IMG/VR virus record: IMGVR_UViG_2932987669_000001
Span: 20,545-84,544 of that record
From: a virus
Strand: one strand, 5' to 3'
Length of the DNA stretch: 64,000 nucleotides
The position numbers and the translations under genes were made by a program. Below are positions 12,553 to 41,125 of the stretch, in pieces; within the stretch, counting starts at the first letter, position 1, and each line of letters opens with the position of its first letter. Under the pieces are notes generated by a model, which did no database searches, was not told the origin of the DNA, and was given only the letters and a program-made list of their open reading frames with translations.

Positions 12553-12594
12553 GTGGTCCGGTTTGCCTCACGGATCTGTAGTTAGTCCTCAACC
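12553..12594 (+). promoter_or_regulatory. Bipartite late-promoter-like motif, copy 2 (before MTase-protease-scaffold)
   Basis: GGTCCG-N15-CTGTAGTTAGTCCTCAACC. Confidence 0.75.
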
Positions 12595-12628
12595 CGACAT
12601 GGGCAGCACACCAACCAGGGGACGAACT

Positions 12629-14992
12629 GTGGAACTCATGCAAACGGACCTGGATCGCATCCAGTTCCTTCTCGAAACGGAGGCGGGCCTTACCCTCGGC
12701 GAGGACCTTCGCACCGAAGGCAAAGCCGAAGAGGGCGAGCGTCCCGCCTACAAAACCAGTTACTTGGGAAGCAAACAGAAACTCGTCGACTGGATCTGGA
12801 AGCACACACCGGACGGCGTCAAAATCGTCTTCGATGCGTTTGCCGGGTCCGCCGCTGTCGGCTACATGTACAAGACCAAGGGCCTGCAGGTCATCGCCAG
12901 CGATCGTCTGCGGATCAGCTATCACATGGCCCGCGCGATCATCGAGAACCAGAAAACGCGCCTCTCGGATGAAGACGTGGCCATGCTGCTGGCGGCCAAC
13001 GCGGACGCCGGAACCTTCGTTCGTAATCACTTCAAAGGGATGTACTTCAACAAGGGCGTCCACGAGCGCATCGACACGATCCGATCCAACATCGACAAGC
13101 TAAAGGGCTACAAAAAGGATCTGGCCCTCTTCGCGTTGGTCCGAACCTGCATGCTGGGCACCGACCACGGGCACTTCGGCAGTCGGACGCCGGACTCGCG
13201 TCTGGTGCTCAATGCGAAGGCGTTCGACGAAGGCTTCCAGCGGTTCGTGAAACGGATCAACCAGTTGGTCTTCGACAACGGTCAAGACAACAGGGTGATC
13301 CAGGGCGACATCGAGTCCGTGTTGCCGCAGGTCAAGGCGGACCTGGTCTATTTCGACCCGCCCTATGCGACCGAGTTCAGTGCGGCCAATTACACGGCCG
13401 TGTACCACTTTGTCGAAGGCTTGATGACCTATTGGAAAGGGATGGCGCTTCGCGATACGGCCCTAAAAACCTTCGAGACCGACCACAAGGCGATCAGCCC
13501 GAAAACAGCTCCGGCATTCTTCGAGAAGTTCCTGGGCGCGGCCCAGCACATTCCCATCTGGTTGATCAGCTACCGCGATAAGGCGTTCCCCAACGAGTCG
13601 CAAATGCGCGGCATTTTCGCCAAGCTGGGTCGCACGTCCACCATGCGGTCGAAGGATCACAAGTACAACCTCTTCAACAAGCGGGCCTCCGATGCGAACC
13701 AACCGAAGGAACGGCTGTTCCTGGCGACCCGAGACTCGGCCAAGTCGAAAGCCGACGTCGAAATCATCCAACTCGACGGGAACGGGCACGAGGAGGAACC
13801 GCAGACTGCCGCATGCCACACGGAATTCCCGGTTGAGATCGAGCTAATTCCCAACGCGCCGCTCAAAACCTCGGCGGAACAGCAGTCCCCTCTCGGTGAC
13901 CCTCAGTTCCGGTGTGTCTTGTGCCGGGTTGGAACAAACAAGAACGGCGACCACTTCAGCCACGCGGAACTGTCGACCCGCTACACCACGGCCATCAACA
14001 AGAAGGTCGACCTGAAACACAGCCAGGAATTCGACGACATCGTCGGCGGCATCATCGGTTCGGACTTCGTGGAAGACGACCAAGGCGCCCGTGTGGAAGT
14101 CGTCGGCGAGCTCTACCTGGCCGAGAGCGCCCACGCCGCGCTGGCCTACAAGCTGATGAAGCGCGGCATCGTCCGCCAGGTGTCGATGGAGTGCGACTAC
14201 GCCGAGGGAGAGTGCTCGGTCTGTCACAAGCGGTTCGGCTCCAAGGCCAACTATTGCATTCACTTGGCCAAGTTCAAGGGCGCGCAGTTTCAGGGTCAGC
14301 CGGTTTACGAAATTCTACACGGCGTCACCTTCACTGGCCTCGGCCTGCTCGACCGGAAGGGCGCCGACGAAAACGCCAAGATCACCCAGGTCGGGTCCGA
14401 ACAATCGGGATTCGATCGCCAACCCTCCCAAGGAGAAGACATGGAAGACAAAGCGAAGGACCATGCCGAAGCCGCCAAAGACCCCGGAGACGGCGGTGGT
14501 GGGGGCACCGGTCAACCTGAATCCTTGGAGCAGCAGAACCGAGCGCTCCAGGAAGAGAACAAGAAACTCAAACAGCAGGTTCAGGAACTTACCAAGCGGA
14601 TTGAAGAGCTCGAAGCCGAGCAAAAGGCGGCGGCCAATCGGGTCCGCGCCGAGAAGCTGCTGGCGCAATACGCGAAGAAAGGTGTGTCCTTTTCCACCGA
14701 CGAAGCGCGCAAAAAGGAGCTCGATCGGCTGGCGGGCCTCTCGGATGAAGCCTTCGCCGCGACCGAGGCCGCTTTGGCAGTTCTCCCGGAACCGTCGGTG
14801 CCCAAAGCAGAAAAGGAGCCCGAAAAGGCCAAGACGGAAGCGCCGAAAGCGGCAGCCAACCTGAGTACCGAAGCCCAGGTGCGACCGCACGACGTGGACG
14901 ACACACCTGCATCCCTCGAAGACGAACTCACCCAAGGCTTCATGGCCGCGTACCGAGAACGGCTCGGCTTTACCGCCAGCGGTTCCTCTTAA
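12629..14992 (+). CDS. Fusion: D12-class DNA adenine methyltransferase + prohead protease-like domain + coiled-coil scaffold
   Basis: MTase: YLGSKQKL, FDAFAGS (12830), DPPY (13355), KERLF. Protease-like: GTNKNGD...VDLKH...VSMEC...CSVC...GVTFTGLGLL (~13890-14395). Charged coiled-coil C-terminus. Single uninterrupted ORF; GTG 12629 with GGGGA RBS (ATG 12638 alternative). Confidence 0.85.
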   Translation: MELMQTDLDRIQFLLETEAGLTLGEDLRTEGKAEEGERPAYKTSYLGSKQKLVDWIWKHTPDGVKIVFDAFAGSAAVGYMYKTKGLQVIASDRLRISYHMARAIIENQKTRLSDEDVAMLLAANADAGTFVRNHFKGMYFNKGVHERIDTIRSNIDKLKGYKKDLALFALVRTCMLGTDHGHFGSRTPDSRLVLNAKAFDEGFQRFVKRINQLVFDNGQDNRVIQGDIESVLPQVKADLVYFDPPYATEFSAANYTAVYHFVEGLMTYWKGMALRDTALKTFETDHKAISPKTAPAFFEKFLGAAQHIPIWLISYRDKAFPNESQMRGIFAKLGRTSTMRSKDHKYNLFNKRASDANQPKERLFLATRDSAKSKADVEIIQLDGNGHEEEPQTAACHTEFPVEIELIPNAPLKTSAEQQSPLGDPQFRCVLCRVGTNKNGDHFSHAELSTRYTTAINKKVDLKHSQEFDDIVGGIIGSDFVEDDQGARVEVVGELYLAESAHAALAYKLMKRGIVRQVSMECDYAEGECSVCHKRFGSKANYCIHLAKFKGAQFQGQPVYEILHGVTFTGLGLLDRKGADENAKITQVGSEQSGFDRQPSQGEDMEDKAKDHAEAAKDPGDGGGGGTGQPESLEQQNRALQEENKKLKQQVQELTKRIEELEAEQKAAANRVRAEKLLAQYAKKGVSFSTDEARKKELDRLAGLSDEAFAATEAALAVLPEPSVPKAEKEPEKAKTEAPKAAANLSTEAQVRPHDVDDTPASLEDELTQGFMAAYRERLGFTASGSS
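14441..14992 (+). CDS. Nested in-frame scaffold protein (internal start)
   Basis: AAGGAG 5 nt before in-frame ATG 14441, exactly at the protease/coiled-coil boundary. Confidence 0.6.
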   Translation: MEDKAKDHAEAAKDPGDGGGGGTGQPESLEQQNRALQEENKKLKQQVQELTKRIEELEAEQKAAANRVRAEKLLAQYAKKGVSFSTDEARKKELDRLAGLSDEAFAATEAALAVLPEPSVPKAEKEPEKAKTEAPKAAANLSTEAQVRPHDVDDTPASLEDELTQGFMAAYRERLGFTASGSS

Positions 14993-15005
14993 AGGAGATT
15001 TGTGC

Positions 15006-15368
15006 ATGCCATTTATCTACACGAGCCACCAGAGCCTGTCCTACGGCGACGGCTACCTGCAGGCCGAAGGGCAGACCGGCCAGGTGGTGCGCCTGGTCGG
15101 GAATGATCTGTTCGCGGTCAACACCGACCCCACCGAGAAATCGTTCGGCATCCTCATCCGAGACTACAAAGCAGGCGACATGCCGGGCATTTACTGCAAC
15201 GGCGGGGTGCTGACCACGGATGTGTACGAGGGCTCCCCTGCGGCGGGCGACGAGCTCAAGGTATCCAGCCAAGGGTACCTGACGCCAGGGCCGCAAGCGG
15301 GCGAACAGGTGATCGGCCAGGTCATTTCGGCCGATGGCGGCATTCTTAAATTCAAGCTGCTGGTATAG
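15006..15368 (+). CDS. Head decoration / capsid cement protein
   Basis: ~120 aa beta-rich, Gly-rich protein between scaffold and capsid; AAGGAG RBS. Confidence 0.65.
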   Translation: MPFIYTSHQSLSYGDGYLQAEGQTGQVVRLVGNDLFAVNTDPTEKSFGILIRDYKAGDMPGIYCNGGVLTTDVYEGSPAAGDELKVSSQGYLTPGPQAGEQVIGQVISADGGILKFKLLV

Positions 15369-15378
15369 GGAGGATTCT

Positions 15379-16245: not shown

Positions 16246-16256
16246 GGAGGTGTGCC

Positions 16257-17871: not shown

Positions 17872-17900
17872 TTGACTCTTACGATTGTAGGATCTAGAAT
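17872..17900 (+). promoter_or_regulatory. Sigma70-type promoter of the PadR cargo operon
   Basis: TTGACT-N17-TAGAAT; near-palindrome TACGATTGTA in the spacer (possible operator). Confidence 0.7.
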
Positions 17901-17936
17901 GGGTATGCTTGAGTCGTACAAAAGCAGGAGTGACAA

Positions 17937-18230
17937 ATGCTACCAGACTTATCAAACAAGGAACACTTAATATTGGGCCTCCTGGTTACTCACGGACAGC
18001 TATATGGCTTAGAGCTGGTCAAAAAATCTGAGGGGCAATTAAAACGGGGCACAGTTTATACAACTTTAAGCCGGATGATTGATAAAGGGTATTTGAATTT
18101 TTCTGTCGAAGAAAATGCTACTCATTCCGGTCTCCCCCGGCGAAAATATTCTCTAACAGGACATGGTCGCAAAGTGTTTGAGGAGTTCAATGTATATGCT
18201 GCAAGCTTTGTAAAGGGGTTTGCCATATGA
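17937..18230 (+). CDS. PadR family transcriptional regulator
   Basis: LYGLEL...GTVYTTLSRMIDKGYL...RRKYSLTGHG winged-helix signature; AGGAG RBS. Confidence 0.9.
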   Translation: MLPDLSNKEHLILGLLVTHGQLYGLELVKKSEGQLKRGTVYTTLSRMIDKGYLNFSVEENATHSGLPRRKYSLTGHGRKVFEEFNVYAASFVKGFAI

Positions 18231-19168
18231 AAAACTCGGTTATTATTCCAGTTTGGAAAGTAAAACTTGCAATAATCGGTTTTGGCTTGTCCTTTTTTTG
18301 CCCCCTTGTAGCGATTAGTATAGCCTTAATGATGTCTCCTGATAAAATATTCTCACAGATCGACAAAGAACAAATGCTTGAAAGCGTCAACATTGCATTT
18401 GATTCCACGAGGAATACAGAGTCTTTTGCGAATATTTCATCTGAAGCTTTAGATATAGAATTCCATGGAGTGTTAAGCCATGGGAGCAAACAAGAAAAAA
18501 TTCTAAAGTTGAAAGACGAAATGAATTGTTTTATTCAAGATGCTTTCGAGAGTGAAACCTTAAATGAAACCATATTCTCGATTCACCAGTACGGGTATGG
18601 TTCATTTGAAAAAATGTTGAACCCCATGCTTGAAAATTCACCTGCTTATAATAACGGAAGGAGGGTGAATCAAGACGCATTGGAAATATTTAGAGATAGC
18701 TCGATTGCTTTGAGTTTAATCTCAAAAAATACTTTATCCCTGCTTCAGAATAATCAGAAAAAAGCCAACTATTTGGGGATGAAATTAGTCGCCTCTCAAT
18801 ATGCTACCTATGTTTTGACTGGCCTTGGTTTTTTGGGGTTGTTACTTACCTTACCCTTCTTTTTTGTTAACATCGAGACAAAGAACGAAAAAACCTTGTT
18901 GATAAAAGCTCCCGGGTGGCGCCTTTCGCTCTTCTCTAGATTGGTTTTTGGACAAAAAGCCTACAGTGCAGAATTCTTAGAGCTTCAATCGAATTTAGAT
19001 GATGAATATTTTGAGGCGTATTCCGATGGTAGGATTAAGGAAGCAAGCTGGATTCATCTCAGATATATAGTTATATTCTGGACTCTCTTTTTGAAAAAAG
19101 TGCTCAGAGGCCCCTTCTACCTTTTCAAAGAGTTAGTGTCAATCCAAAACAAAATCGACAAACTTTAA
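18227..19168 (+). CDS. Membrane protein coupled to PadR
   Basis: ATGA overlap; TM segments near N-terminus and ~aa 190-215; C-terminal PGWRL...DDEYFEA...GRIKEASWI resembles PadR-neighbour permease-prefix domains; AT-rich. Confidence 0.7.
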   Translation: MKNSVIIPVWKVKLAIIGFGLSFFCPLVAISIALMMSPDKIFSQIDKEQMLESVNIAFDSTRNTESFANISSEALDIEFHGVLSHGSKQEKILKLKDEMNCFIQDAFESETLNETIFSIHQYGYGSFEKMLNPMLENSPAYNNGRRVNQDALEIFRDSSIALSLISKNTLSLLQNNQKKANYLGMKLVASQYATYVLTGLGFLGLLLTLPFFFVNIETKNEKTLLIKAPGWRLSLFSRLVFGQKAYSAEFLELQSNLDDEYFEAYSDGRIKEASWIHLRYIVIFWTLFLKKVLRGPFYLFKELVSIQNKIDKL

Positions 19169-19195
19169 GCTCTTTATGGCCTTCTGACAGGAGTT

Positions 19196-19702
19196 TTGAT
19201 TTATGGAAACACTATGAGTTCATCGCATGGACTATACATCTTCACCGTCTTTAATTGTTTTTCCAGGCAGGGGCAGGTCTCGACTCTGTTTGATGAAGAC
19301 TGTGTAAGAAGAAACTTACTAATTTGGAGTCTTCAAGGCCCGGCCCTACAGGAAACCATAGAGATGGGACCAAAAAATCAAACTTGTGAGCAAACCAGTC
19401 AGGTGACTTTGTGCAAAATAGCGTTGCACCTACAAGGCTTCCAGTTGTACTTTCTCACTGCCCAGTACAAAACACTGATCCGCTCAGCAATGCCACTGGC
19501 CAAACAGAGAAACGACCGGTCTACCTACAAAATCACCGGCATCGAGATCAAAGGGGCCATCCCGACGATCAAAGCGGAGCGGTTCTCCACGCTGAGATGC
19601 TACACCGACTCGGGATTCTTCATCCGGGTGCGCCTCGGTGAAAATGGCAAGTACATGATTATTGAAGAATACACGGAGACCCAGCCCCATTCCGATTGCT
19701 GA
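19196..19702 (+). CDS. Hypothetical protein (start uncertain)
   Basis: ORF only; the 3' part has more coding-like codon use. Confidence 0.35.
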   Translation: MIYGNTMSSSHGLYIFTVFNCFSRQGQVSTLFDEDCVRRNLLIWSLQGPALQETIEMGPKNQTCEQTSQVTLCKIALHLQGFQLYFLTAQYKTLIRSAMPLAKQRNDRSTYKITGIEIKGAIPTIKAERFSTLRCYTDSGFFIRVRLGENGKYMIIEEYTETQPHSDC

Positions 19703-19841
19703 GTTACAGAAAGAGAAATAAGGCGATTTCCGTGAGAATCTACTAGTTGTTATCGGTGGAAAATATCGTCGCAAAAAAATGGGGCACTTTTAGTCTCGGG
19801 GAAAGGGAGCGAGCTTGCCATTTGAAATGGGGAGGGGCAAG

Positions 19842-22800
19842 ATGGATTTAGCGTGGAAGGATAAAGGATATCTACTACTTCAGTTTAAAATGCGGTGTTA
19901 TAAGCAAAATGCTATTGAATTTCAAAGTTTTTTTGAAGAGGTAATGGAGGAGGTATATGATGACTTTCGGAAGATAAGGCCTCATGGAAACCTTGGAGAT
20001 GGTGGGAATGATGGATATCGACCTAGCGTAGGCGAATACTATCAGGTTTACTCTCCTCGTCAGCCACAGTTTAAAGACACCGATGCTGCCAAAAAGTTTA
20101 AAGACAATTTTAAAACTCTGAAAGCAACCTGGGGTGAATTTGACAATGTAAAAACGTATTATCTTGTATTTAACGATAAATATCATGGGTCTTCACTTCC
20201 CCTGGAAAAGGCACGCATAGAACTAAAAAGAGAAAATCCAGATGTTTTATTTGATATAGTTCTTGCTAGAGATTTTGAAAGGCTGTTTTTAAAGTTAGGT
20301 CAAGAGTCTTTGCTTCGACTTGATTTTGATATTGACAGTAGAAGAGCAGTGGAGATCGTTACAAATATTTTTGATCAGGTCAAAGATTTATTGAAAAAAG
20401 GGCAAGGTGAAAGCGCCTATGGCTTGTTGCAAGCAAATGAAATTGGGTTACATATACTGAATGATGATCATTTGTTGCATCAGCAAAGGGTTCTGGAATG
20501 TAGGTGTTTAATTTCCTTAGAACGAATCCCAGAAGTAAAAGAAAAATGCCAGCACCTACTGCTTGGAAAACCAGAAGATATAGATTTCCTTTGCATCCTC
20601 ATGGATCTAAGTTTGAGCTGCCGAGACTTTGCTGGATTTGAAGAAAAATTAAACCAAGCCAAACATATCGACCAGGGCAGCATAAGAGCTTATTGCCTCG
20701 AGCTTGAGTGTATTATGTTGTCTAATGGTGAGGTGACGGATGAAAACCTGAACTACTTGTACAAAAGAGCCGATTACTCACCGCCGTTTGTAAGTGTGAC
20801 ATTATCCTATGCTTGTGATTATTTGGGAAGGTTTGAAGAGGCAGATAAATGGATGAGGTTTGTAGAAAACAATGACCAAGACGATCTGGCTGCTCACTTG
20901 GGGGCGTTGTGTATTTTGCATTCTAGGGGGAATCGAGCCCAGGATCCTCAGAAGAGAGCAGAGATTAATAAAGAGCTACAGGAAAAATCTAAACTTGTTT
21001 ATGATCACTTTAGTCAATTTGGCCCTCTCTCTCCGAGGGACAGGGTTCTTTTGCAATACTTATCAATTCAGAATGACTTAGAGACAAGGGACTATGAGCA
21101 AATTATTAATAAGTCTTCTCATGCGATTTCACTCGTTATGAAATGCTATTTTGATTACCAGATAGCAATTATTCTGACTAAAAATTTGCAAGTAGCTGAG
21201 TTGTCAAAAAAGATACTAAGCGAGCTATTGGCTTTTCTTGAGGCATCTTCGTTTTCTCCGCCATTGTTTCTGCAAAAACAATTGTTATTACTGTTTTTGT
21301 CTTCGAATATTTCCATGAGCGAAATCAAAGAATACTTCATAAATACTCAGCAAAGGCAGTTACTATCTCTCCTGGAGAATATTGAGGAGAAACGCTTTGA
21401 GGGGGCCCTGGAAGAGCTCCGAAACGATTTAGATTTCGCTTACCATCTGGCGCTGGGCGTTAAACGGTTTCCTGAGTTTCGTAGATATTTGTATTCAAAA
21501 CTTCCTGACTTGCCTGATCATCCAAAGGGTGCTATTTCCCTCATTTTGTCTGTGGACGAGGGTTGTTATGAAGAGACGTTAAAGTTTCTGCAAAATATCT
21601 GTTTAGATACCCTGAGCTACTACCATAAAAACTATTTGCTCAAGGCTGTGAGAGACAAGAAGGCGTGGGATATTGAGATTTTCTTACTGGAGAAACTTCT
21701 AGGGGAAGAATGGGACTCTGAAAAGCTATGGTCAATTAAATACAGGTTAATCTATCTGTATTATTCATCGCAACAATACCTTAAAGTCATCCTCTTAGGA
21801 GAAGAGCTTCTTCTGGCTTGTCTAGAGGAAAACGTTCTTACCAAAGAGGAGGTTAGGCGTGTGCTTTGGGCAACTCTTCAATCATGCCTGTGCCAAGGGA
21901 AAGTGGAGTCTCGTTTTTTTGACAGAGCCCTAGATCTGCTCGAGCGCTTTTCTGGCTATGACTCAAGTTTTGATTTTCTCTTGAACACCAAAGCTATTGC
22001 AGAAATAAAAAGTAATAACCCAAAAGCAGCAACTGAAACCATACTCAAGGCGATAAAGGAAAAAGGCCTCCTCTCCCTTGAGGATTGTAATAGCGTATTC
22101 CAGGTAGTCGTATTTGAATTAGGAGAATCTGAGTGTCTTTCAAATAGCTCGCTTGAAGTGGTTACTCCTGACTCGTTTGTAAAATTTAAAGACAGTGACA
22201 AGTGGTATGTGATGAGCGAATCTTCTCTGCTTGAAGCTGTTCCGGTCCCTAAGAAATCTTCAAGGTACAAGGTTTACTTAGGACAAAGACCCAATGTTCC
22301 ATTCATATTTTCGAGAAAGTTCTCCTCTGAAACACTAGAAATAGAACGGATTTTTTGCTTTAAGAACTATGCGTTTTGGTATGTTTTCCAAAAGATTGGT
22401 CATGCAATAAATCAAGATTTGATTCCAGGGGTTGTCTCAATTCCTGTTAAAAAAGATAGCAAAGGATTTGACTTTGGGAATCTAATTTCCGTACTGAAAG
22501 AAGAAAGGAATCATGGTGCAGAGTATTTTCACCAATATTGTAACAACAATTGGCCTTTTGCTGCATTAGCAACACATGAAGGAGGAATCCTTTCTGCAGT
22601 TCAGAGAATAGCGAGCGAAGGAAGAGGTAGCATACGTTTTAGAGCAGGCGGTATTCAAGAGTATCAAAATCAACTTTGCACAGCGAGAAAGTTAATTGAG
22701 GAAAAGCGCTCCTTTTTCCTTGATGGAACATCGGCATTTTTTCTGGTGATTTCAGGTCTATTGGATAAGGTGTGCGATTCTTTCCCTGGTATGAGAGTTC

Positions 22801-23687
22801 CGCAATCCGTTGTCAATTTATTAGCTCAAATTGTCGATCGATACGAGGATAGAGCCAATTCTAGAGGTTTTCTTGGTCTTCGAAATGATCAGCTTTTGTT
22901 GACAGTTATTAGCTCCGAAGATAGAAGAGCTAACAAGGATCAGATCACTAAGGCTATCCAGAAAATCCAGAGCACTCACGAGAGGGTCGTTTTCATTTCC
23001 GATGCTAATAGGTCGGATTTTTTTTCAGAAAAAGAAATACTTCCAGAGTTTGCAGATGCAACAATTTTGGCCCAAAAAGAAGGATGCTGCATTCTAACCG
23101 ATGATTTTTATTACCTTCACCTTAATCACATGGAAACAGGCAAACCCATTCCCGATTACACCTCTTCTCTTGGGCTTATTACCGAAATGCTCACTGCAGG
23201 TTTAATATCCTTTGAACAGTATCTTGATTTTTTTCAGTTATTGTCTCGATTTCGTTTTGCCCCTCTACCTCTTGGTGAATCAGAAATTAAAAGGGCAATA
23301 TTTGGAATGAGACGAATTGTCGAGTTAAATTTTGACAATATTAGTAAATTGAACCTACCTTATATTTTATCCTCTGCGAATGGAGCCATTAGAAAGAAGG
23401 TGGGAGTTCTTTTTGCTGATTTTTTTCGAGAGCTTCTCTTTGATCATTCGATTTCTTCGGGAATTATTGGCAAATTATTTGCTGAAATCCTAAAAAATCT
23501 TCCAGAGGAAATGGATTCCACTCAAATTGGACAAGAAATTCTCGCCTATTGTGTAATTGCAAGCCAGAAAGGGAAATCTGCAGTACTGTACTGGCCCAGT
23601 GATCAAGTGGTTGAACAAAAATTATTTTCGCTTTTTGAAGTTTTAACATTGTGTGATTTTAGAAGAAAGGCTGGATATTCGATATAG
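19842..23687 (+). CDS. Large AT-rich protein: N-terminal PD-(D/E)xK-like nuclease, TPR-like helical region, C-terminal PIN domain (probable defence protein)
   Basis: N-term FQSFFEEVM...IRPHGNLGDGGNDGY...YYQVYSP; long helical repeats; PIN-like FFLDGTS...VPQSVV...DATILA...ILTDDF; ATG 19842 with GGAGGG RBS. Confidence 0.7.
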   Translation: MDLAWKDKGYLLLQFKMRCYKQNAIEFQSFFEEVMEEVYDDFRKIRPHGNLGDGGNDGYRPSVGEYYQVYSPRQPQFKDTDAAKKFKDNFKTLKATWGEFDNVKTYYLVFNDKYHGSSLPLEKARIELKRENPDVLFDIVLARDFERLFLKLGQESLLRLDFDIDSRRAVEIVTNIFDQVKDLLKKGQGESAYGLLQANEIGLHILNDDHLLHQQRVLECRCLISLERIPEVKEKCQHLLLGKPEDIDFLCILMDLSLSCRDFAGFEEKLNQAKHIDQGSIRAYCLELECIMLSNGEVTDENLNYLYKRADYSPPFVSVTLSYACDYLGRFEEADKWMRFVENNDQDDLAAHLGALCILHSRGNRAQDPQKRAEINKELQEKSKLVYDHFSQFGPLSPRDRVLLQYLSIQNDLETRDYEQIINKSSHAISLVMKCYFDYQIAIILTKNLQVAELSKKILSELLAFLEASSFSPPLFLQKQLLLLFLSSNISMSEIKEYFINTQQRQLLSLLENIEEKRFEGALEELRNDLDFAYHLALGVKRFPEFRRYLYSKLPDLPDHPKGAISLILSVDEGCYEETLKFLQNICLDTLSYYHKNYLLKAVRDKKAWDIEIFLLEKLLGEEWDSEKLWSIKYRLIYLYYSSQQYLKVILLGEELLLACLEENVLTKEEVRRVLWATLQSCLCQGKVESRFFDRALDLLERFSGYDSSFDFLLNTKAIAEIKSNNPKAATETILKAIKEKGLLSLEDCNSVFQVVVFELGESECLSNSSLEVVTPDSFVKFKDSDKWYVMSESSLLEAVPVPKKSSRYKVYLGQRPNVPFIFSRKFSSETLEIERIFCFKNYAFWYVFQKIGHAINQDLIPGVVSIPVKKDSKGFDFGNLISVLKEERNHGAEYFHQYCNNNWPFAALATHEGGILSAVQRIASEGRGSIRFRAGGIQEYQNQLCTARKLIEEKRSFFLDGTSAFFLVISGLLDKVCDSFPGMRVPQSVVNLLAQIVDRYEDRANSRGFLGLRNDQLLLTVISSEDRRANKDQITKAIQKIQSTHERVVFISDANRSDFFSEKEILPEFADATILAQKEGCCILTDDFYYLHLNHMETGKPIPDYTSSLGLITEMLTAGLISFEQYLDFFQLLSRFRFAPLPLGESEIKRAIFGMRRIVELNFDNISKLNLPYILSSANGAIRKKVGVLFADFFRELLFDHSISSGIIGKLFAEILKNLPEEMDSTQIGQEILAYCVIASQKGKSAVLYWPSDQVVEQKLFSLFEVLTLCDFRRKAGYSI

Positions 23688-23910: not shown

Positions 23911-23952
23911 TCGACCCGTTTTCCTTCGGCTTTCTGTAGTTAGTCCTCAACC
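23911..23952 (+). promoter_or_regulatory. Bipartite late-promoter-like motif, copy 3 (before tail operon)
   Basis: GACCCG-N15-CTGTAGTTAGTCCTCAACC. Confidence 0.75.
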
Positions 23953-23972
23953 CACCGAGGTTGGAGGACGCC

Positions 23973-24539
23973 GTGGAAACCCTACGCGACATCGTCGAAG
24001 CCCTGATCCGCCTGTTCCAGCGAGAGGTCCATGAACGGGCCGTGCTGGTGCCTCTCGACGACGTCCACGAAATCAAAAGCCCGCCGAGCCTGATCCTTCA
24101 GGGCCCGGCCTTGGCCGAGAACCGGTGCCGTCGGGTCCAAGCCTTCGAAGTCTGCAAGGATCTCGACCGGCTGACCTATGAGCGCTGGCCCGCGCCGAGG
24201 CTCTACCACCTGGACTTCGATATCGTCGCGACCACGGCCAACGATGCCCAGTTGCTGGATCTCCAGGCGAAGATCACGCGCTTCTATCTCGACCACCCGG
24301 TCCTCGCCATCGAGGATCGCGGCGCGTTGAACCTGACCGAGCTGGTGCCAATGGGAAGTCTGCGGCGGGTCAACCTCTCCAATCTCAAGCAAAGTGCCGG
24401 TCGCCTTCGCATCGAGGATTGCCCGATCTACGGGAACGCCGTCGAGGAAGGACGACTGATCGTCGACCGCCACTTCGAATTCCGGGGTGGCCTGGTCGAA
24501 GACCGTCGGTTCACATCTCAACCTGAGGAGTCGCCTTGA
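23973..24539 (+). CDS. Putative tail terminator (Pvc16/Afp16-like position)
   Basis: GTG with GGAGG RBS; precedes sheath; PRLYHLDFDIVATT...LL resembles tail-terminator proteins. Confidence 0.5.
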   Translation: METLRDIVEALIRLFQREVHERAVLVPLDDVHEIKSPPSLILQGPALAENRCRRVQAFEVCKDLDRLTYERWPAPRLYHLDFDIVATTANDAQLLDLQAKITRFYLDHPVLAIEDRGALNLTELVPMGSLRRVNLSNLKQSAGRLRIEDCPIYGNAVEEGRLIVDRHFEFRGGLVEDRRFTSQPEESP

Positions 24540-33106: not shown

Positions 33107-34609
33107 TCATTTCTTCAAAAGCTTCTCAAGGCGGTTCAGTGCAACCCCCTCCCGATCTAAATACGAAATAGGCAGTAATTGCAACCTCAATTTCGCCCCT
33201 GGTCGTTTCCAGTTGACCGCCAGGCCATTCTTAGAGTTTTTTCGCTTGAGTTCGTATCCAATTCCAAGATTTAAAGAAAACAAATTGAAATAACTCCGTG
33301 GCCCAACTCCAATAAAAGGCTCGAACAATACTTTATTAAGGGTGTTTTCGACGGAGATTGAATCTTTGTGAAAATCCAAGGCTTTGCTTTTGGGATAAGG
33401 TTCTATAAAAACGACGCGGCGAACTCCGGAGGAAATGATGTGTTTTGCACAATTATGACACGGGAAAGTAGTGCAGAAAATTTCTGCATCCTGAGTGCTA
33501 ATTCCCATCCGGCTGCAGGTTAGTAATGCTTCCATTTCGGCATGAACAACTCGGCCATATTCAGTTATATCCATAACGGAACTTTGCTTTAGTGCTTTTT
33601 TTATCTTTTTTCGCGATTTTTTAGGAGCATCATTGACGATTTTATCAATAATCTTTCTCTTCTCTGTGGTATTTGTGTCATACCCAAGGCGGTAGTCTCT
33701 ACCGCCTTCAGAGTCGCAAAAAATTCGCTCTTGCTCGTTGTAAGATGGCCAATAGAGACCTCCATCAGCCTTTGGCACATCATTTGCTCCTGTTGCTATT
33801 ATGTTCGTTCCTTTGGTTAGAACTGCCCCCACCTGCCTCGACAAGTCGGCTGAGCGTAATGCCGAAGAAAAGGCCAAAAACATGGAGTACTCATCAAATG
33901 TTGGTGTCACAAATGGATTTCCAAAAATCAGATCGAGTATCCGGGATATTTGTGCCTCTAAATAATTTAAATTGGAGTTAAAAGAAATAAAAAAATCTGA
34001 GAGATGAAATGCAGCTCTAACCTGTTGACCATGTTTTTTTGACTCAGCTTCGTCGCGACGGATCAATTTTTCAGCCTGGTCTTCATGCATCCCTTTGCGA
34101 ATCAGGCGTTGAATACGGTCTGTTTCGCAAGAATATACCCCAAAAATAAATACGCCAGGGTGGTAAATATTTCTAAGTCGCTCTATTTCATAATGGTGTT
34201 TGAGAGAGTTTATTATTGTCGCAGTTCGTTTTTTGGGAGTGACTCCGTTGTCATCTTCCGAGGATTCTCGAGTATCGTAGATTCGTGCCGCTGCAGCTAG
34301 TGCTAAAATCGAGTTGTCGCCAGATTTTTCTCTTAATTTATTCCCTTCATTCATTAACGCATTGGCTCGCTCGAAGGCCCCATCTGGAATCTTTGCGTCA
34401 GTCAAAGTCTCTATAATTTGATTTGAGACTTTGATCGTCTCAACTTGATACTGAAACACTTTCAAAAAACCTTTTATTAAATCACAGACTAAATCCAGAG
34501 GAGTACCAATCGCGCCAACGAGCCCAATTATCAACTCAGAATCAGAATACTGAGGTTCTTTCTTTGATTTTTTTGATGTACTTCTACCGCCATTTTGGTT
34601 TTTGCTCAT
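33107..34609 (-). CDS. Anti-phage dCTP deaminase (AvcD/Dcd-type: P-loop kinase-like domain + deoxycytidylate deaminase)
   Basis: IIGLVGAIGT N-terminus, TPTFDEY.MF.A...ALRSADLSRQVGA, zinc-site HAE and PCHNC; AT-rich and opposite to the phage genes. Confidence 0.92.
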   Translation of the reverse strand: MSKNQNGGRSTSKKSKKEPQYSDSELIIGLVGAIGTPLDLVCDLIKGFLKVFQYQVETIKVSNQIIETLTDAKIPDGAFERANALMNEGNKLREKSGDNSILALAAAARIYDTRESSEDDNGVTPKKRTATIINSLKHHYEIERLRNIYHPGVFIFGVYSCETDRIQRLIRKGMHEDQAEKLIRRDEAESKKHGQQVRAAFHLSDFFISFNSNLNYLEAQISRILDLIFGNPFVTPTFDEYSMFLAFSSALRSADLSRQVGAVLTKGTNIIATGANDVPKADGGLYWPSYNEQERIFCDSEGGRDYRLGYDTNTTEKRKIIDKIVNDAPKKSRKKIKKALKQSSVMDITEYGRVVHAEMEALLTCSRMGISTQDAEIFCTTFPCHNCAKHIISSGVRRVVFIEPYPKSKALDFHKDSISVENTLNKVLFEPFIGVGPRSYFNLFSLNLGIGYELKRKNSKNGLAVNWKRPGAKLRLQLLPISYLDREGVALNRLEKLLKK

Positions 34610-34697: not shown

Positions 34698-34850
34698 TCA
34701 CAACAACAATTCAGCCCGCACGCAATTGAGCTGTTCATATGAATTTCATCGAAACCGAAAGCCGGGATATAGGTCTTGTGAAAAGGCTTCCGTGTTTTCC
34801 GCAAAGAACTAGATGTCTCTGTGCGCACTTGTCTGGGATCGTGGATTCTT

Positions 34851-34892
34851 GTGAGCCGAAAACCATTTTCTTCCTGTAGTTAGTCCCCAACA
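34851..34892 (+). promoter_or_regulatory. Bipartite late-promoter-like motif, copy 4 (before baseplate hub)
   Basis: GAGCCG-N15-CTGTAGTTAGTCCCCAACA. Confidence 0.72.
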
Positions 34893-34918
34893 CGCCATTT
34901 CGGCCAGAGTTGGGGACC

Positions 34919-36202
34919 ATGACCATCGATCCGTTCAAACCGACCTTCCTCATCCAAATCGAGGGCGAGACCCTTGCCGAGGACATTACCCAGGAGATCA
35001 CGTCTTTTACCTTCGAGGACAACGAGAAGGGACTGGACGTACTCACCCTGACGGTGACGAATCGGAACCATCAGTTCGTCGACCACCCGTTATTCCAGGA
35101 AGGCAACGAGATCGTGGCCCGCTGGGGCTACGTCGACAACCTGTCACCGCGCAAAAAGGCGGTGATCAAGGATGTCGATTATGAGTTCCCCGAAAACGGC
35201 GATCCGCGAATCCGCCTGAAAGCCTTCGACAAAGGGTTCAAGCTTTCTGGCAAAGAGAACCAGAAGGTGTGGCAAAAGCCCGCGCCGGGGATCTTGTATT
35301 CGGAGATCGCGGAGCACATTGCGAGGGCCAATGGCTTATCACCGGTTATCGAGCCGACCCTGACGCCGCACCTTCGCGTGGTGCAAAGCAACCAGTCTGA
35401 CGCCCACTTCCTTCAAGAGCTGGCCAAAAAGGCCAGGGCCCAAGATGGTGATGGTGCGGCCGGCTATGTCTTCTTCATTCAAGATGACACGCTCCACTTC
35501 CACCCGCGCCGACTGGAGCAGGCTCCCGCCATGGTTCTGGAGTACTTCACCAGCCGCCAGGGCTTGCTCCGATCCGTCCGGGTGGATGCTCGATCCCAGG
35601 GCGCAAAGGGTGCGGGCACCGAGACCACTACGATCGGGCTCGATCCCAGGAAGAAAGAACCGGTCGTTTACAAGGCCAATAACGACACCACGCCGGAACG
35701 CACATCCCTCGGCAAGCGAACCTATCTCGTCGACGCCAACACCGGCGAGGGCGGGTTCAAAGAGCAGGAGACCGGACACGTGGTGCCGACCTTCGAATCT
35801 GCCGAAGCGCTTCATGAAAAACCGACCCACGAGCCTTCCCAGGACGCGGCCGAGAGCCAGTTCAAGGAAACCGAACTTCGCCAAGTCGAGGCCACGGCCC
35901 AAACCATTGGGATTCCGCAACTGACCGCCAAGGCCAATGTCGAACTTCGTGGCCTCGGCCAAAAGCTGAGCGGAATCTATTACGTGACCTCGATCCGCCA
36001 CCAAATCGGAGAAAGCGGGTACACCTGCGACCTCCGACTTCGCAGGAATGCGCTGGGCGCCGGTGCCGGGGACAAGTCTGAAAAATCCAAGGGTATCCCC
36101 AACGAGCAGGCCGGCCCGGCAACGCCCCAGGAGAAACCGCCAGCCATGGTGACGGTGGACGCGGACACCGGCGACATCATCGAGGATCCGAGGGAGGGGT
36201 GA
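34919..36202 (+). CDS. Baseplate hub, late control D / VgrG gp27-like
   Basis: DNEKGLDVLTLT, F..G..I...WGY, SEIAE.IA...GL, QSNQSDAHFL..LA, G.YYVTSIRH. Start may be TTG 34910. Confidence 0.85.
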   Translation: MTIDPFKPTFLIQIEGETLAEDITQEITSFTFEDNEKGLDVLTLTVTNRNHQFVDHPLFQEGNEIVARWGYVDNLSPRKKAVIKDVDYEFPENGDPRIRLKAFDKGFKLSGKENQKVWQKPAPGILYSEIAEHIARANGLSPVIEPTLTPHLRVVQSNQSDAHFLQELAKKARAQDGDGAAGYVFFIQDDTLHFHPRRLEQAPAMVLEYFTSRQGLLRSVRVDARSQGAKGAGTETTTIGLDPRKKEPVVYKANNDTTPERTSLGKRTYLVDANTGEGGFKEQETGHVVPTFESAEALHEKPTHEPSQDAAESQFKETELRQVEATAQTIGIPQLTAKANVELRGLGQKLSGIYYVTSIRHQIGESGYTCDLRLRRNALGAGAGDKSEKSKGIPNEQAGPATPQEKPPAMVTVDADTGDIIEDPREG

Positions 36203-36684
36203 TGATCGCGCCTTTCTTTTTCCTTATTGCAACGGCCGTCAGCAGAGTTTGGCCGTCCCCTGGACCTGGCGATCGTGCCCATGTCACATGGCTGACAGCC
36301 GACTTGGAACCATCCCGGTTCGCCTGCCGTCATTGCGGCGACGTGGTGATCGATCGCCGACTTCTGGACGCCCTTTTAGCGCTCCAAGGGAAGGTAGGCC
36401 GCCCCTTGGTGATTCTCAGCGGGTATCGCTGCCCGCCGCACAACCGGGACATCGGCGGGGAGCTGAGAAGCTACCACACCAAGGGTCAAGCGGCCGACAT
36501 TCGCGCACCCGGCGTTCCGATCATGGCCCTATTCCAGGCCGCATTGGAGATCCCCGCCTTTCGCGGCGGCGGGATCGGCCTTTACCTCAATCGCAAGTTC
36601 CTCCACCTAGACATTCGCCCGCAGCGCTTTCGGTGGATTGTCCCACCACGGAACGCGCTGCCCAACAAAACCCATAGCCATTAG
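36199..36684 (+). CDS. Peptidase M15A (D-Ala-D-Ala carboxypeptidase family), putative endolysin
   Basis: FAC..CG, SGYRCPPHN..IGG...SYH..G.AADI, GIGLY...FLHLDIR; hydrophobic N-terminus. Confidence 0.88.
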   Translation: MMIAPFFFLIATAVSRVWPSPGPGDRAHVTWLTADLEPSRFACRHCGDVVIDRRLLDALLALQGKVGRPLVILSGYRCPPHNRDIGGELRSYHTKGQAADIRAPGVPIMALFQAALEIPAFRGGGIGLYLNRKFLHLDIRPQRFRWIVPPRNALPNKTHSH

Positions 36685-36692
36685 GAGAGTTC

Positions 36693-37007
36693 ATGAACGT
36701 TCTCGATTTCCTCCAGGAGTATCAGGCCGCCCTGATTTCTTTGGCCGTTGCCGTGATCGGCGCGGTGAAACTGACCTCATGGGGCCGGGCCAGGGCCGAA
36801 GTCCTCGACACCCTCGTGACCATCATCGAATCGTTGGGCCTGAAAGAGGCCAAGGCCGTCATGGCCGTCCAGGAGCGCCGCCTGTCTCAAGGTGCTCAAG
36901 ATGCACTTGCCCACGCCGTGAGCAAGGCGGATCCCAAGAAAAAGCCCAAACCACTGGGGCAGCGCCTCCTTGGTGAAGCGCTGCGGGGCATCATCCCCAA
37001 ACGGTAA
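36693..37007 (+). CDS. Small membrane protein, holin candidate
   Basis: N-terminal TM (AALISLAVAVIGAV), basic C-terminus, follows the M15 peptidase; AGGAG RBS. Confidence 0.5.
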   Translation: MNVLDFLQEYQAALISLAVAVIGAVKLTSWGRARAEVLDTLVTIIESLGLKEAKAVMAVQERRLSQGAQDALAHAVSKADPKKKPKPLGQRLLGEALRGIIPKR

Positions 37008-37056
37008 CCCACTCAGCGCGGTCTTTCGGGGCCGCGCCATTTTCGAGGTTTCTTGA

Positions 37057-38040: not shown

Positions 38041-38051
38041 GAAGGCTATCG

Positions 38052-39431: not shown

Positions 39432-39443
39432 GGGAGATGCTAA

Positions 39444-39770: not shown

Positions 39771-39771
39771 G

Positions 39772-40572
39772 ATGGGATCTGCCACGTTTTCACCCGGCTC
39801 GGGCGCAATCTACGACATAACCACGACCTCACCCGTGGCCCATGTGCTACACCTGAGCCACGCGGCCTCAGAAGCCATGCGCCAGGAAGCCGAATCTGCC
39901 CTCGAAGCCCACCAGCAGGCGGCGGCCGAGTACAGCCAGCAACTGGACCAACCGGACTTTCACCCGTTCGTGTCATTGCCCGCAGGCACCCTGCAGCGTG
40001 ATTTGTCGAACGGCCAGCGGCTCTTCGTCCTGCCGGACGGCACCTTTTTGGGAACGACCGACCAGGAACACTTCGTGTTCGTGGACTCCGCCGGCGTTCC
40101 GTACCAGATACCGGAGCACGACGGCAAGGTCACCCTTCCCGATAGCCGCGTCTTCGAATTGGTCCCCGAAGCGCGGGCAACGCATGCGACAGATTGGATC
40201 CAAGGCCTGCCGGCAGGTGTTCATCCGGTCCAAGTTGCCGACGGGCGGTTCCGTATCGTTTTCGCTACGGGTCTTCGGCTGGATGTCTCCATCCCGGATC
40301 GTCGGGTTGTCCTTCTCAATCCGACGGCAACCGTGATCGAGTTGGGTAAGAAGATCCAGGCCATTGGCGAGGAAATCCAAGTCAACCTGGTGGACAACGG
40401 CGGGCGTGGGTTCTCGGCCCTGGAATCCCAGCATCGTGGATTCATCGATCAGTCCGGCGACATCCTGTTGAGCTTGGTCAGCGGCGAAGACTTAGCGATC
40501 ACCTTCCCGACACAAGACCAAAACGGAGAGGAGAATCCTCATCGCTACTACCAATGTGGGGGCCCGGTATGA
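39772..40572 (+). CDS. Hypothetical baseplate-region protein
   Basis: ATG 1 nt after the previous stop; phage-like codon use; LPDG repeats. Confidence 0.6.
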   Translation: MGSATFSPGSGAIYDITTTSPVAHVLHLSHAASEAMRQEAESALEAHQQAAAEYSQQLDQPDFHPFVSLPAGTLQRDLSNGQRLFVLPDGTFLGTTDQEHFVFVDSAGVPYQIPEHDGKVTLPDSRVFELVPEARATHATDWIQGLPAGVHPVQVADGRFRIVFATGLRLDVSIPDRRVVLLNPTATVIELGKKIQAIGEEIQVNLVDNGGRGFSALESQHRGFIDQSGDILLSLVSGEDLAITFPTQDQNGEENPHRYYQCGGPV

Positions 40573-41003
40573 CGTCGTTCGATTTCCTCGGCAAGGGCAT
40601 CAAGTTCCCATTCCGTTTCGATCGGAAAACCGGTGGCGTGGCCACATCGGAGGTCACCTCTCAAGACCATGCCCGCATCCGTGAGAGCATCGTCCAGATC
40701 CTGGGCACCCGAGTTGGCGAACGGTTCATGCGGCCCGACTTCGGCTCGCGTTTGCACGAGCTGGTTTTTGAGCCCAATGATTCGGTGCTCAAGGGTTTGA
40801 TCCGCCACTATGTAATAGATGCAATTCGAAAGTGGGAAAAGCGTGTGGTGATCACCGAAGTGACGTTTGAAGACGGACCCGAACAGGTGGACGCCAATGT
40901 CTTACAAGTACGCATCCACTATCGGCTGATCCAGTCCCCCGTGACGGGGAACTTGGTTTTTCCGTTCCATCGTGAAGGTCGAACCGAACAGCCGAACGGC
41001 TAA
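40569..41003 (+). CDS. Baseplate wedge GPW/gp25 family
   Basis: LGKGIKFPF, IRESIVQILGTRVGERFMRPDFGSRL..L.FEPND, WEKRV. Confidence 0.95.
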   Translation: MTSFDFLGKGIKFPFRFDRKTGGVATSEVTSQDHARIRESIVQILGTRVGERFMRPDFGSRLHELVFEPNDSVLKGLIRHYVIDAIRKWEKRVVITEVTFEDGPEQVDANVLQVRIHYRLIQSPVTGNLVFPFHREGRTEQPNG

Positions 41004-41042
41004 TGAAGGCCTCCCAGCCAGACGTGACCTTTTCAAATTTTT

Positions 41043-41084
41043 GTGGCCCGGCTTCCCTCCCAAATCTGTAGTTAGTCCCCAACC
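41043..41084 (+). promoter_or_regulatory. Bipartite late-promoter-like motif, copy 5 (before baseplate J)
   Basis: GGCCCG-N15-CTGTAGTTAGTCCCCAACC. Confidence 0.75.
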
Positions 41085-41125
41085 GAGCAAAGAACTCGGG
41101 GTCGAACTCAAGGAGGGAAGCCGCC

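What the first reader, a model, noticed from the sequence alone, without database searches (positions are those of the whole stretch)
12585..41123. The motif copies are wired to hairpins that hide the next ribosome-binding site
Seen: copy 4 GTCCCCAAC (34883-91) pairs perfectly with GTTGGGGAC (34909-17) just before the start. Copy 3 GTCCTCAACC (23943-52) pairs with GGTTGGAGGAC (23959-69, one bulge) over the GGAGG. Copy 2 GTCCTC pairs with GGGGAC (one G.U). In copy 5 the spacer CGGCTTCCCTCC (41049-60) is a perfect 12-nt complement of GGAGGGAAGCCG (41112-23). Copy 1 is weak. Known: T4 late genes e, soc and 49 are silenced on long early transcripts by RBS-masking hairpins whose 5' arm is missing from late transcripts. 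Inference: read-through RNA, for example from the PadR operon promoter, is translationally locked while late transcripts are not.
Basis: partly seen in the sequence, partly recalled or inferred. Interest (0 to 1): 0.75.

Follow-up and report, generated by a model that had tools for sequence, protein, structure and literature searches.

The report
Phage promoters nested in ribosome-site-masking hairpins
In this prophage, the DNA of most phage-specific promoters also encodes an RNA segment that pairs with the next gene's ribosome-binding site, so probably only messages started at that promoter are translated; this is a known T4/IS10 trick, here used genome-wide and conserved in a widespread phage family.

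Summary
Copy 1 is not weak: its -35 box pairs 10/10 with codons 4-7, and its spacer CCUCC pairs with the GGAGG.

The motif is half of a bipartite box, GTGACCCG-N15-CTGTAGTTAGT. The genome holds ten copies, all in this prophage, which also encodes an ECF-like sigma factor. The boxes precede the sigma and replication genes too, so they are phage promoters rather than late-only promoters.

Opening the ribosome site costs far more on read-through RNA than on RNA started at the predicted start. The difference is 9-15 kcal/mol for copies 1, 4 and 5, beyond all control genes. It is marginal for copy 3 and absent for copy 2.

Related phages across many phyla use a different box (CGACA-N13-CCGGTAAGTA) at the same gene positions. 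There CTTCCGG pairs with unusual CCGGAG ribosome sites (9/14 box genes against 2/89 others), with compensatory changes between lineages.

No start site is mapped, so the mechanism stays inferred (about 0.6). This scan noted similar promoter-embedded anti-SD arms before in T4-like phages. I class it as a new variant of a known kind.

The parts
9464..9546 (+). Copy 1, before the portal gene (TTG 9526). -35 box 9466-9473, 15-nt spacer, box 9489-9506. Hairpin arms 9464-9473/9537-9546 (10/10) and CCUCC 9475-9479 / GGAGG 9516-9520.
   Evidence: z -3.72; ddG 9.4, above all 204 null values.
12553..12650 (+). Copy 2, before the MTase-protease-scaffold gene (GTG 12629). -35 box 12553-12560, box 12576-12593. 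Arms GTCCTC 12585-12590 / GGGGAC 12618-12623 and 12555-12563/12642-12650 (8/9).
   Evidence: z -0.42, not significant; ddG 1.9-3.1, within the null range.
23911..23975 (+). Copy 3, before a 188-aa tail-module gene (GTG 23973). -35 box 23911-23918, box 23934-23951. Arms 23943-23952/23959-23969 cover the GGAGG.
   Evidence: z -2.25; cost to open 18.1 long, 12.0 short. In one search, 6% of null values reach its ddG.
34851..34921 (+). Copy 4, before the VgrG-related tail protein (ATG 34919). -35 box 34851-34858, box 34874-34891. Arms 34883-34891/34909-34917 (9/9) end 1 nt before the ATG.
   Evidence: z -3.52; ddG 9.9-13.4, above all null values. Homologous leaders.
41043..41128 (+). Copy 5, before baseplate J (ATG 41126). 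-35 box 41043-41050, box 41066-41083. The 5' arm 41049-41060 (end of the -35 box plus spacer) pairs 12/12 with 41112-41123, which holds the GGAGGG.
   Evidence: long -44 kcal/mol, z -3.86; without the arm z 0.02; ddG 12.7-14.6. J homologues.
17872..23687 (+). Low-GC cargo operon on the + strand: sigma70-like promoter 17872-17900, PadR about 17970-18185, two ORFs, then PIN-TPR-GreABC 19815-23687. It is a possible source of read-through into copy 3.

Best explanation
The bipartite boxes are most likely promoters read by RNA polymerase carrying the prophage's own ECF-like sigma factor.

At most of them the promoter DNA (-35 box, spacer, -10-like box or the bases just after it) is complementary to the translation initiation region of the first downstream gene. 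RNA that enters from upstream carries both arms and folds into a hairpin that buries the Shine-Dalgarno sequence, the start codon or both. Such RNA could come from an upstream phage operon, a cargo operon such as PadR, or host transcription. RNA that starts at the box, predicted at the conserved CA of ..CCYC/AAC, lacks the 5' arm and leaves the site open.

Translation of each operon head is thus licensed by where the message starts.

Shown: the complementarity, its excess over control genes, and its conservation and co-variation in relatives.

Inferred: that the boxes are promoters, where transcription starts, that read-through RNA exists, and that masking lowers translation.
For: 1. Promoter-like anatomy.
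- The genome holds ten boxes, all in this prophage and co-oriented with the genes. Each has an upstream GTGAC(C/G)CG exactly 15 nt away.
- An ECF-type sigma gene sits between two boxes (TIGR02937 E 2.7e-9; phrog_1740 E 5e-8).
- That gene has a homologue at the same place in relative G404, and G402 holds a sigma hit.

2. Own phage, cost to open the ribosome site.
- Controls: 9.2 +/- 3.7 kcal/mol, maximum 18.6, n=68.
- Read-through form: 18.1 (copy 3), 20.1 (copy 4), 24.3 (copy 5), 17.0 (minus-strand copy).
- Form started at the predicted start: 12.0, 10.2, 11.6 and 6.5 respectively.
- The long-minus-short difference for copies 4 and 5 exceeds all 408 null values. With a 30S-footprint window, copy 1 also exceeds all 204 null values and L008 exceeds all but 0.5%.

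3. Relatives with the box CGACA-N13-YCGGTAWRTA.
- They carry 5-8 boxes per genome at the same gene positions.
- CCGGAG, which pairs with the promoter's CTTCCGG, precedes 9/14 box genes against 2/89 other genes (Fisher p 4e-8).
- Mean cost to open: long 14.1, controls 8.9 (p 1.6e-5), short 7.4.

4. Co-variation.
- At the copy-4 homologue the outer stem is TT/AG, TT/AA or GCG/CGC in different lineages.
- At J, a box variant TCGG is matched by CCGA.
- 84.6% of cells are paired against 25-54% when the partners are slid.
- J homologues with a box upstream are masked (13.2), while homologues without one are not (7.0; p 0.002).

5. Read-through is plausible. No terminator-like site lies between the upstream genes and the boxes of copies 2, 3 and 5.

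6. Precedent. T4 genes e, soc, 49 and I-TevI work this way (PMC3014915).
Against: - No transcription start site, no RNA data and no reporter exist for this phage or its relatives.
- In copies 3 and 4 the 5' arm lies after the -10-like element. With a start 4 nt further upstream most of the arm stays in the RNA and the site remains fairly closed (15.4 and 16.0).
- Copy 2 folds no better than shuffles. The two replication and terminase-side copies (L001, L002) show no clear pairing.
- Pyrimidine-rich promoter DNA pairs with purine-rich SD sequences to some degree by composition alone.
- All promoters seem to share one sigma, so the early-versus-late logic of T4 does not obviously apply.
- The relatives are not phylogenetically independent, and gene starts in the control sets were called heuristically.
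- No close relative with the same box was found, so the window's own stems have no direct co-variation test.
Confidence: 0.6

Rival explanations
1. Transcription starts upstream of the arm in the window's box, for example at ..TTAG/TCC. The conserved UCCYCAAC is then the 5' end of every phage message. The copy 3 and 4 hairpins would be 5'-terminal stem-loops that stabilise the mRNA, or translational operators that a phage factor or temperature must open, as Com does for Mu mom.
For: - GTCCYCAAC is conserved in 9 of 10 copies, including copies with no partner downstream. This fits a transcribed or recognised element.
- An ECF-like -10 at CTGTA with a short discriminator would put the start near there.
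- With that start, copies 3 and 4 stay largely masked.
Against: - It cannot explain copies 1 and 5, or nearly all relatives. There the arm lies in the -35 box, the spacer, or just 5' of the -10, and so cannot be in promoter-initiated RNA.
- An essential tail gene locked on its own message would need an unknown activator.
- The invariant C-A at ..C/AAC, 7 nt after TAGTTA, is a typical start context.
Confidence: 0.15
2. The long hairpins in read-through RNA are processing or stability signals, such as RNase III sites like those that follow T7 promoters. They would cut polycistronic RNA into units rather than silence translation.
For: - In relatives the read-through fold is a 20-30 bp interrupted helix with an asymmetric internal loop (UAAGUAA), resembling T7 RNase III sites (own knowledge of the T7 R sites).
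- No terminators separate the operons.
Against: - The 3' arm is always the SD or start region, and the RBS sequence itself has been reshaped to CCGGAG to fit the promoter. That points to translation rather than cleavage.
- The stems in the window are short (9-12 bp), below the usual RNase III substrate length.
Confidence: 0.12
3. Compositional by-product or DNA-level feature. C/T-rich promoter DNA happens to pair with G/A-rich ribosome sites, or the inverted repeats serve protein binding or cruciform formation at the promoter.
For: - The motif contains CCUC-like runs, as the 16S anti-SD does, so 5-6 bp with any SD is expected.
- Copy 2 and L008 are no better than shuffles.
Against: - Control genes of the same phages do not show it.
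- The stems extend beyond the SD core: GTTG..GAC, a 12/12 stem, and a 10/10 stem into codons.
- G.U pairs are tolerated and arm distances vary from 5 to 63 nt. This fits RNA, not a dimeric protein site.
- Lineage-specific compensatory changes are present.
Confidence: 0.08

Closest known systems
T4 genes e (lysozyme), soc, 49 and I-TevI: late promoter nested in a hairpin that sequesters the SD or AUG on early read-through transcripts (review PMC3014915, section 29)
   Same: - The 5' strand of the inhibitory helix is encoded by promoter DNA.
- Transcripts started at that promoter are predicted to lack it.
- The 3' strand is the SD or start codon.
   Different: - Here it is not a few genes but most operon heads of a temperate myovirus-like prophage.
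- The promoters are a phage-specific bipartite box, probably read by a phage ECF-like sigma, not the T4 gp55 TATAAATA.
- No early/late class difference is evident.
- In relatives the consensus promoter element itself (CTTCCGG) is the anti-RBS arm, and the RBS has co-adapted to CCGGAG.
- Nothing has been tested experimentally.
IS10/Tn10 (and IS50) protection from external promoters: fold-back of read-through RNA hides the transposase ribosome site (Davis, Simons and Kleckner 1985, cited in PMC13181058; details from own knowledge)
   Same: A mobile element insulates its own gene from outside transcription by pairing sequence upstream of its own start site with the RBS. That logic fits a prophage whose lytic genes must stay silent beside expressed cargo genes.
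   Different: IS10 has one gene per element. Here the device is repeated at up to ten promoters, and it may also act on read-through between the phage's own operons.
PeSL (promoter-early stem-loop) cassettes of T4-type phages (Arbiol et al. 2010, PMC2839356)
   Same: Both are repeated intergenic promoter cassettes with an associated stem-loop. In both, cargo genes sit next to the cassettes.
   Different: The PeSL stem-loop is a G/C-tract terminator beside a sigma70 promoter. Here the hairpin encloses the promoter, ends in the ribosome site and has no U tract.
ECF sigma factor promoters (e.g. B. subtilis sigW TGAAAC-N16-CGTA; own knowledge)
   Same: - Strictly spaced bipartite box.
- A small sigma of regions 2 and 4 encoded nearby, with a box in front of its own gene.
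   Different: - The box sequences (GTGACCCG-N15-CTGTAGTTAGT; CGACA-N13-CCGGTAAGTA) match no ECF consensus I know.
- The sigma scores below NCBIfam's curated cut-off.
- Recognition has not been tested.

Membership tests
Promoter-nested RBS-masking hairpin (T4 e/soc/49/I-TevI type) | The SD and/or start codon is sequestered in a helix on the long transcript. | tested here: met
   - Cost to open on the read-through form: 18-24 kcal/mol for copies 3-5, against 9.2 +/- 3.7 for 68 control genes.
- Copy 1 meets it with the footprint window.
- Copy 2 does not.
Promoter-nested RBS-masking hairpin (T4 e/soc/49/I-TevI type) | The 5' arm lies upstream of the start site of the nested promoter, so the short transcript lacks it. 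| tested here: inconclusive
   - Geometry fits. The arms lie in the -35 box or spacer (copies 1, 5 and the relatives) or within 9 nt after TAGTTA (copies 2-4).
- The start site is only predicted, and no RNA data were usable.
Promoter-nested RBS-masking hairpin (T4 e/soc/49/I-TevI type) | Transcripts from upstream actually read through the promoter. | tested here: inconclusive
   No terminator-like site lies between the upstream + strand genes and the boxes of copies 2, 3 and 5. No transcript data exist.
Promoter-nested RBS-masking hairpin (T4 e/soc/49/I-TevI type) | Translation is lower from long RNA than from short RNA. | not testable with these tools
   This needs reporters or toeprinting.
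Promoter-nested RBS-masking hairpin (T4 e/soc/49/I-TevI type) | The pairing is conserved by compensatory change in relatives. | tested here: met
   - Met for positional homologues with another box type.
- It could not be tested for the window's own stems, because no relative with the same box was found.
ECF-sigma-dependent promoter set | A bipartite motif with fixed spacing, confined to the element that encodes the sigma. | tested here: met
   - Ten of ten copies have a 15-nt spacing, and all lie within G000:C1:5615737-5674928.
- Elsewhere, 400 genomes of the phylum gave only singleton hits at the level of the reversed-pattern control.
ECF-sigma-dependent promoter set | A cognate sigma-70 family protein with regions 2 and 4. 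| tested here: inconclusive
   - TIGR02937 gives E 2.7e-9 at 36.9 bits, below the 42.9 cut-off.
- phrog_1740 gives E 5e-8.
- The match covers residues 57-218.
PeSL cassette | The stem-loop is a transcription terminator adjacent to the promoter. | tested here: not met
   The hairpins enclose the box, end at the start codon and have no U tract (description).
Known Rfam cis-regulatory RNA | A match to a curated covariance model. | tested here: not met
   The window gave zero matches at gathering thresholds.

The most novel reading that the evidence does not exclude
A cosmopolitan family of temperate myoviruses runs its whole lytic programme under a two-key lock. A phage sigma chooses the start site, and that start site decides whether the message can be translated, because every promoter encodes the anti-RBS arm of its own operon head. 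In relatives the consensus promoter word CTTCCGG and the RBS word CCGGAG have co-evolved. This would keep lytic genes untranslated on host, cargo or antisense-driven read-through RNA in lysogens. It would also explain why cargo islands can be inserted just upstream of the boxes without leak.
Probability: 0.4. Interest if true: 0.7.

Novelty: new variant of a known kind. Interest (0 to 1): 0.6.

Why it matters
If confirmed, a device known from four T4 genes and a few insertion sequences would become a genome-wide design rule in an unrelated, very widespread prophage family.

- Promoters would double as translational insulators.
- This would give a simple sequence signature for predicting phage transcription units and start sites: a promoter word complementary to the next RBS.
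- It would offer a natural part for synthetic biology that ties translation to promoter identity.
- It would suggest how prophages tolerate expressed cargo genes wedged between structural operons.

It is directly testable with 5' end mapping and reporter fusions.

Tried and rejected
- RNA evidence, own window: no RNA holder was listed for window 34700-36700.
- RNA evidence, relatives: runs holding a related class-A phage are kept only as Logan contigs. Laid on L149, the contigs break at 1494/1499/1535, the edges of the repeated box. Their loose ends match another promoter copy, so this is assembly branching and not a transcript end. No start site could be read.
- Direct co-variation of the window's own stems. 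Scans for the own-type box found only unrelated single hits in genome contigs, viral contigs and metagenome contigs, none with the upstream half. The 400 genomes of the phylum gave singletons at control level. The copy-3 gene found only one distant homologue, which has no box.
- RNAalifold on a plain MAFFT alignment of the leaders gave a meaningless consensus, because the apical hairpin is misaligned. I counted a hand-written structure instead.
- RNAduplex of promoter versus RBS segments allowed large loops and overlapping segments and was noisy. I replaced it with opening-energy calculations.
- Rfam gave no family in the window.
- PeSL-type terminator reading: rejected, no U tracts.
- The label 'late promoter': rejected, because boxes also precede the sigma and replication genes.
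- Literature searches for a prior description of this phage family's promoters found none.
Full report
**What is there**

The window holds most of a myovirus-like prophage. Its genes include:
- terminase (1858) and portal (9526);
- a MuF-like protein (10886);
- a DNA methylase fused to a head-maturation region (12629);
- sheath (24763), tube (26633) and tape measure (27932);
- a VgrG-related tail protein (34919);
- baseplate gp25, J and I homologues (40554-44115);
- a DUF4815 fibre (47009).

Low-GC cargo islands interrupt the prophage:
- a split LRR-Roc-COR gene on the minus strand (5949-9118);
- a + strand PadR to PIN-TPR-GreABC operon (about 17970-23687);
- a minus-strand deaminase (33107-34609).

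**The motif**

The motif CTGTARTTAGTCCYYAAC occurs five times in the window, against 0.01 expected. In the 11.8-Mb genome it occurs only in a 60-kb stretch around the window:
- eight copies on the + strand;
- a ninth on the minus strand;
- a tenth, which keeps only CTGTAGTTAGT, in front of a sigma-like gene.

Every copy has GTGAC(C/G)CG-like bases exactly 15 nt upstream.

The upstream part of the prophage encodes a serine recombinase, a 229-aa protein and a replication module. The 229-aa protein matches ECF-type sigma factors over regions 2 to 4:
- TIGR02937: E 2.7e-9, below the curated cut-off;
- phrog_1740: E 5e-8.

Boxes precede the sigma gene, the replication genes, a minus-strand gene, the terminase block and the five structural blocks. 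I therefore read them as the phage's own promoters, probably sigma-dependent, and not as late-only promoters.

**Check of the observation**

| Copy | Folding z-score of promoter-to-start segment (shuffles folding as well) |
|---|---|
| 5 | -4.05 (0/200) |
| 1 | -3.72 (0/200) |
| 4 | -3.52 (0/200) |
| 3 | -2.25 (5/200) |
| 2 | -0.42 (67/200) |

Its -35 box (9464-9473) pairs 10/10 with codons 4-7 (9537-9546), and the spacer CCUCC pairs with the GGAGG.

So the 5' arm is not always the motif's 3' half. It can be any part of the promoter:
- the -35 box (copies 1 and 2);
- the spacer (copies 1 and 5, and the sigma copy);
- the bases after the -10-like element (copies 2-4, L008 and the minus-strand copy).

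Where the variable bases of GTCYYC pair with an SD, three of five copies match perfectly: GTCTCC/GGAGAC, GTCCTC/GAGGAC and GTCCCC/GGGGAC.

**Long versus short 5' ends**

I computed the free energy needed to make the ribosome site single-stranded in two RNAs. One starts 75 nt upstream of the box (read-through). The other starts at the predicted start, the invariant C/A of ..CCYC/AAC, 7 nt after TAGTTA.

For the site -16..+3, 68 control genes of the same phage cost 9.2 +/- 3.7 kcal/mol, with a maximum of 18.6.

| Copy | Read-through form | Short form |
|---|---|---|
| 3 | 18.1 | 12.0 |
| 4 | 20.1 | 10.2 |
| 5 | 24.3 | 11.6 |
| minus-strand copy | 17.0 | 6.5 |
| 1, 2 and L008 | about 10.3 | little change |

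How the long-minus-short difference compares with null values from non-box genes cut at the same distances:
- Copies 4 and 5 exceed all 408 null values.
- For copy 3, 6% of null values reach it.
- With a 30S-footprint window (-18..+19), copies 1, 4 and 5 exceed all 204 null values, L008 exceeds all but 0.5%, and copies 2 and 3 do not stand out.

If transcription started 4 nt further upstream, copies 3 and 4 would stay fairly closed, at 15.4 and 16.0. The result for those two copies therefore depends on the start site.

**Relatives**

The tail protein after copy 4 has about 70% identical homologues in more than 100 prophages and viral contigs from many phyla.

Almost all carry, just before the homologous start codon, another bipartite box: CGACA-N13-YCGGTAWRTA. 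Their leader has the CCGG immediately 5' of the -10-like TAAGTA, plus flanking bases, paired with a CCGG next to the GGAG and the ATG. Different lineages use different flanks:
- CTTCCGG/CCGGAG;
- CTTCCGGT/ACCGGAAG;
- GCGCGCCGGT/ACCGGCGC;
- CCGG..CCUCCG/CGGAGG..CCGG.

This gives T-A versus G-C and T.G versus C-G exchanges at the first two flanking pairs. In a 30-sequence alignment of one subfamily, a hand-written structure has 84.6% of cells paired, against 25-54% for slid partners, and one pair alternates GC, UG and CG.

Five larger relatives each carry several such boxes on the gene strand. In the three that I examined in full they stand at the same gene positions as in the window: portal, methylase-scaffold, tail, VgrG-like and J.

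In two of them the RBS after a box reads CCGGAG in 9 of 14 cases, against 2 of 89 other genes (Fisher p 4e-8). The ribosome site has been shaped to fit the promoter word.

Across three relatives the mean cost to open the site is:
- 14.1 for read-through RNA, against 8.9 for controls (p 1.6e-5);
- 7.4 for RNA from the predicted start (paired test, p 1.5e-4).

At the J gene:
- homologues with a box upstream are masked (13.2 long, 8.4 short, n=16);
- homologues without a box are not (7.0, n=10, p 0.002);
- one lineage has the box variant TCGG matched by CCGA in the 3' arm.

These relatives are not independent samples, and gene starts were called by a simple rule. Even so, the pattern is consistent at two gene positions and across at least five distinct arm solutions.

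**Mechanism**

Each promoter is nested in a hairpin whose 3' arm is the translation initiation region. Read-through RNA is locked, and promoter-initiated RNA is open.

In relatives this holds whatever the exact start, because the arm lies 5' of or inside the -10-like element. In the window it holds for copies 1 and 5 on the same ground. For copies 3 and 4 it holds only if the start is at or near the AAC.

Likely sources of read-through:
- upstream phage operons, since no terminator-like sites precede copies 2, 3 and 5;
- for copy 3, the PadR cargo operon with its sigma70-like promoter.

Because one sigma seems to serve all boxes, the purpose is probably not early/late timing as in T4. More likely it is insulation. 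Lytic genes would be translated only from sigma-started messages, which protects the lysogen from leak driven by cargo or host transcription, as IS10 protects itself from external promoters. This rationale is inference.

**Rivals**

1. The start lies upstream of the arm, and the hairpins are 5' stabilisers or operators. This cannot explain copies 1 and 5 or the relatives.
2. The hairpins are RNase III or processing sites. This is possible for the long interrupted helices of the relatives, but it does not explain the reshaped RBS.
3. The pairing is a by-product of composition or a DNA-level feature. The controls, the G.U pairs, the variable arm distances and the compensatory changes all speak against it.

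**Comparison with the known**

The mechanism is that of T4 genes e, soc, 49 and I-TevI (PMC3014915) and of IS10 fold-back protection (Davis et al. 1985, cited in PMC13181058).

It is not a PeSL cassette (PMC2839356): there is no terminator stem-loop. No Rfam family matches.

Notes of this scan report similar promoter-embedded anti-SD arms at early promoters of T4-like phages. I did not test those.

What is new here:
- the setting, a temperate prophage family with its own ECF-like sigma, found across many phyla;
- the extent, most operon heads;
- the co-adaptation of the consensus promoter word and the RBS word.

**Limits**

- There is no expression or start-site data.
- No close relative with the window's own box type was found.
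- The sigma assignment is below curated thresholds.
- All energies are predictions.

Noticed in passing
G000:C1:5619531-5620220 (L133:2531-3220), about 14 kb upstream of the window: A phage-encoded ECF-like sigma factor gene lies between two box copies (L133:2316 and L133:3240). A homologue sits at the same position in viral contig G404, and G402 holds a phrog_1740 hit.
   Followed up: partly
window 34919-36202 and loci L015-L131: The VgrG-related tail protein is about 70% identical in more than 100 prophages or viral contigs assigned to very different phyla (Desulfobacterota, Planctomycetota, Acidobacteriota, Chloroflexota, Nitrospirota, Gammaproteobacteria and others). Either this is an unusually cosmopolitan phage family or MAG binning scatters one phage over many bins.
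   Followed up: no
L166, L167, L169, L170, L172-L174, L176, L177 (Solirubrobacterales and other actinobacterial MAGs): The 18-nt motif CTGTAGTTAGTCYYCAAC also sits inside a roughly 60-nt element conserved in at least nine actinobacterial MAGs (..GATAAGTCATAA..CTGTAGTTAGTCCTCAAC.AGGATAGCGC). These copies lack the GTGACCCG half. It is unrelated to this phage and I could not identify it.
   Followed up: no
window 5949-9118, 17970-23687, 33107-34609: Three low-GC cargo islands (a split LRR-Roc-COR gene, the PadR to PIN-TPR-GreABC operon, and a kinase-like plus deaminase gene) each end within a few hundred bases upstream of a box copy (copies 1, 3, 4). Repeated promoter cassettes may serve as insertion or recombination points, as proposed for PeSLs in T4-type phages.
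   Followed up: no
L149:1494-1535 in runs X1, X6, X10, X14: Logan contigs of four runs break exactly at the edges of the promoter box, and their loose ends carry the flanks of another promoter copy of the same phage. This is most simply assembly branching at a repeat. Real recombinants between promoter copies cannot be excluded.
   Followed up: partly
G000:C1:5631063-5631080 (L133:14063-14080, minus strand): This is the only minus-strand box. It heads a 276-aa gene of no known family. Its GTCTCC pairs perfectly with the GGAGAC of that gene's ribosome site, and the cost to open the site falls from 17.0 (long) to 6.5 (short).
   Followed up: partly
window 9526 and L132:15796: Two box-proximal genes (portal and the first small ORF of the prophage) start with TTGCAG, which is complementary to the box's own CTGTAR. 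In both minimum-energy folds the box pairs with the start codon.
   Followed up: no
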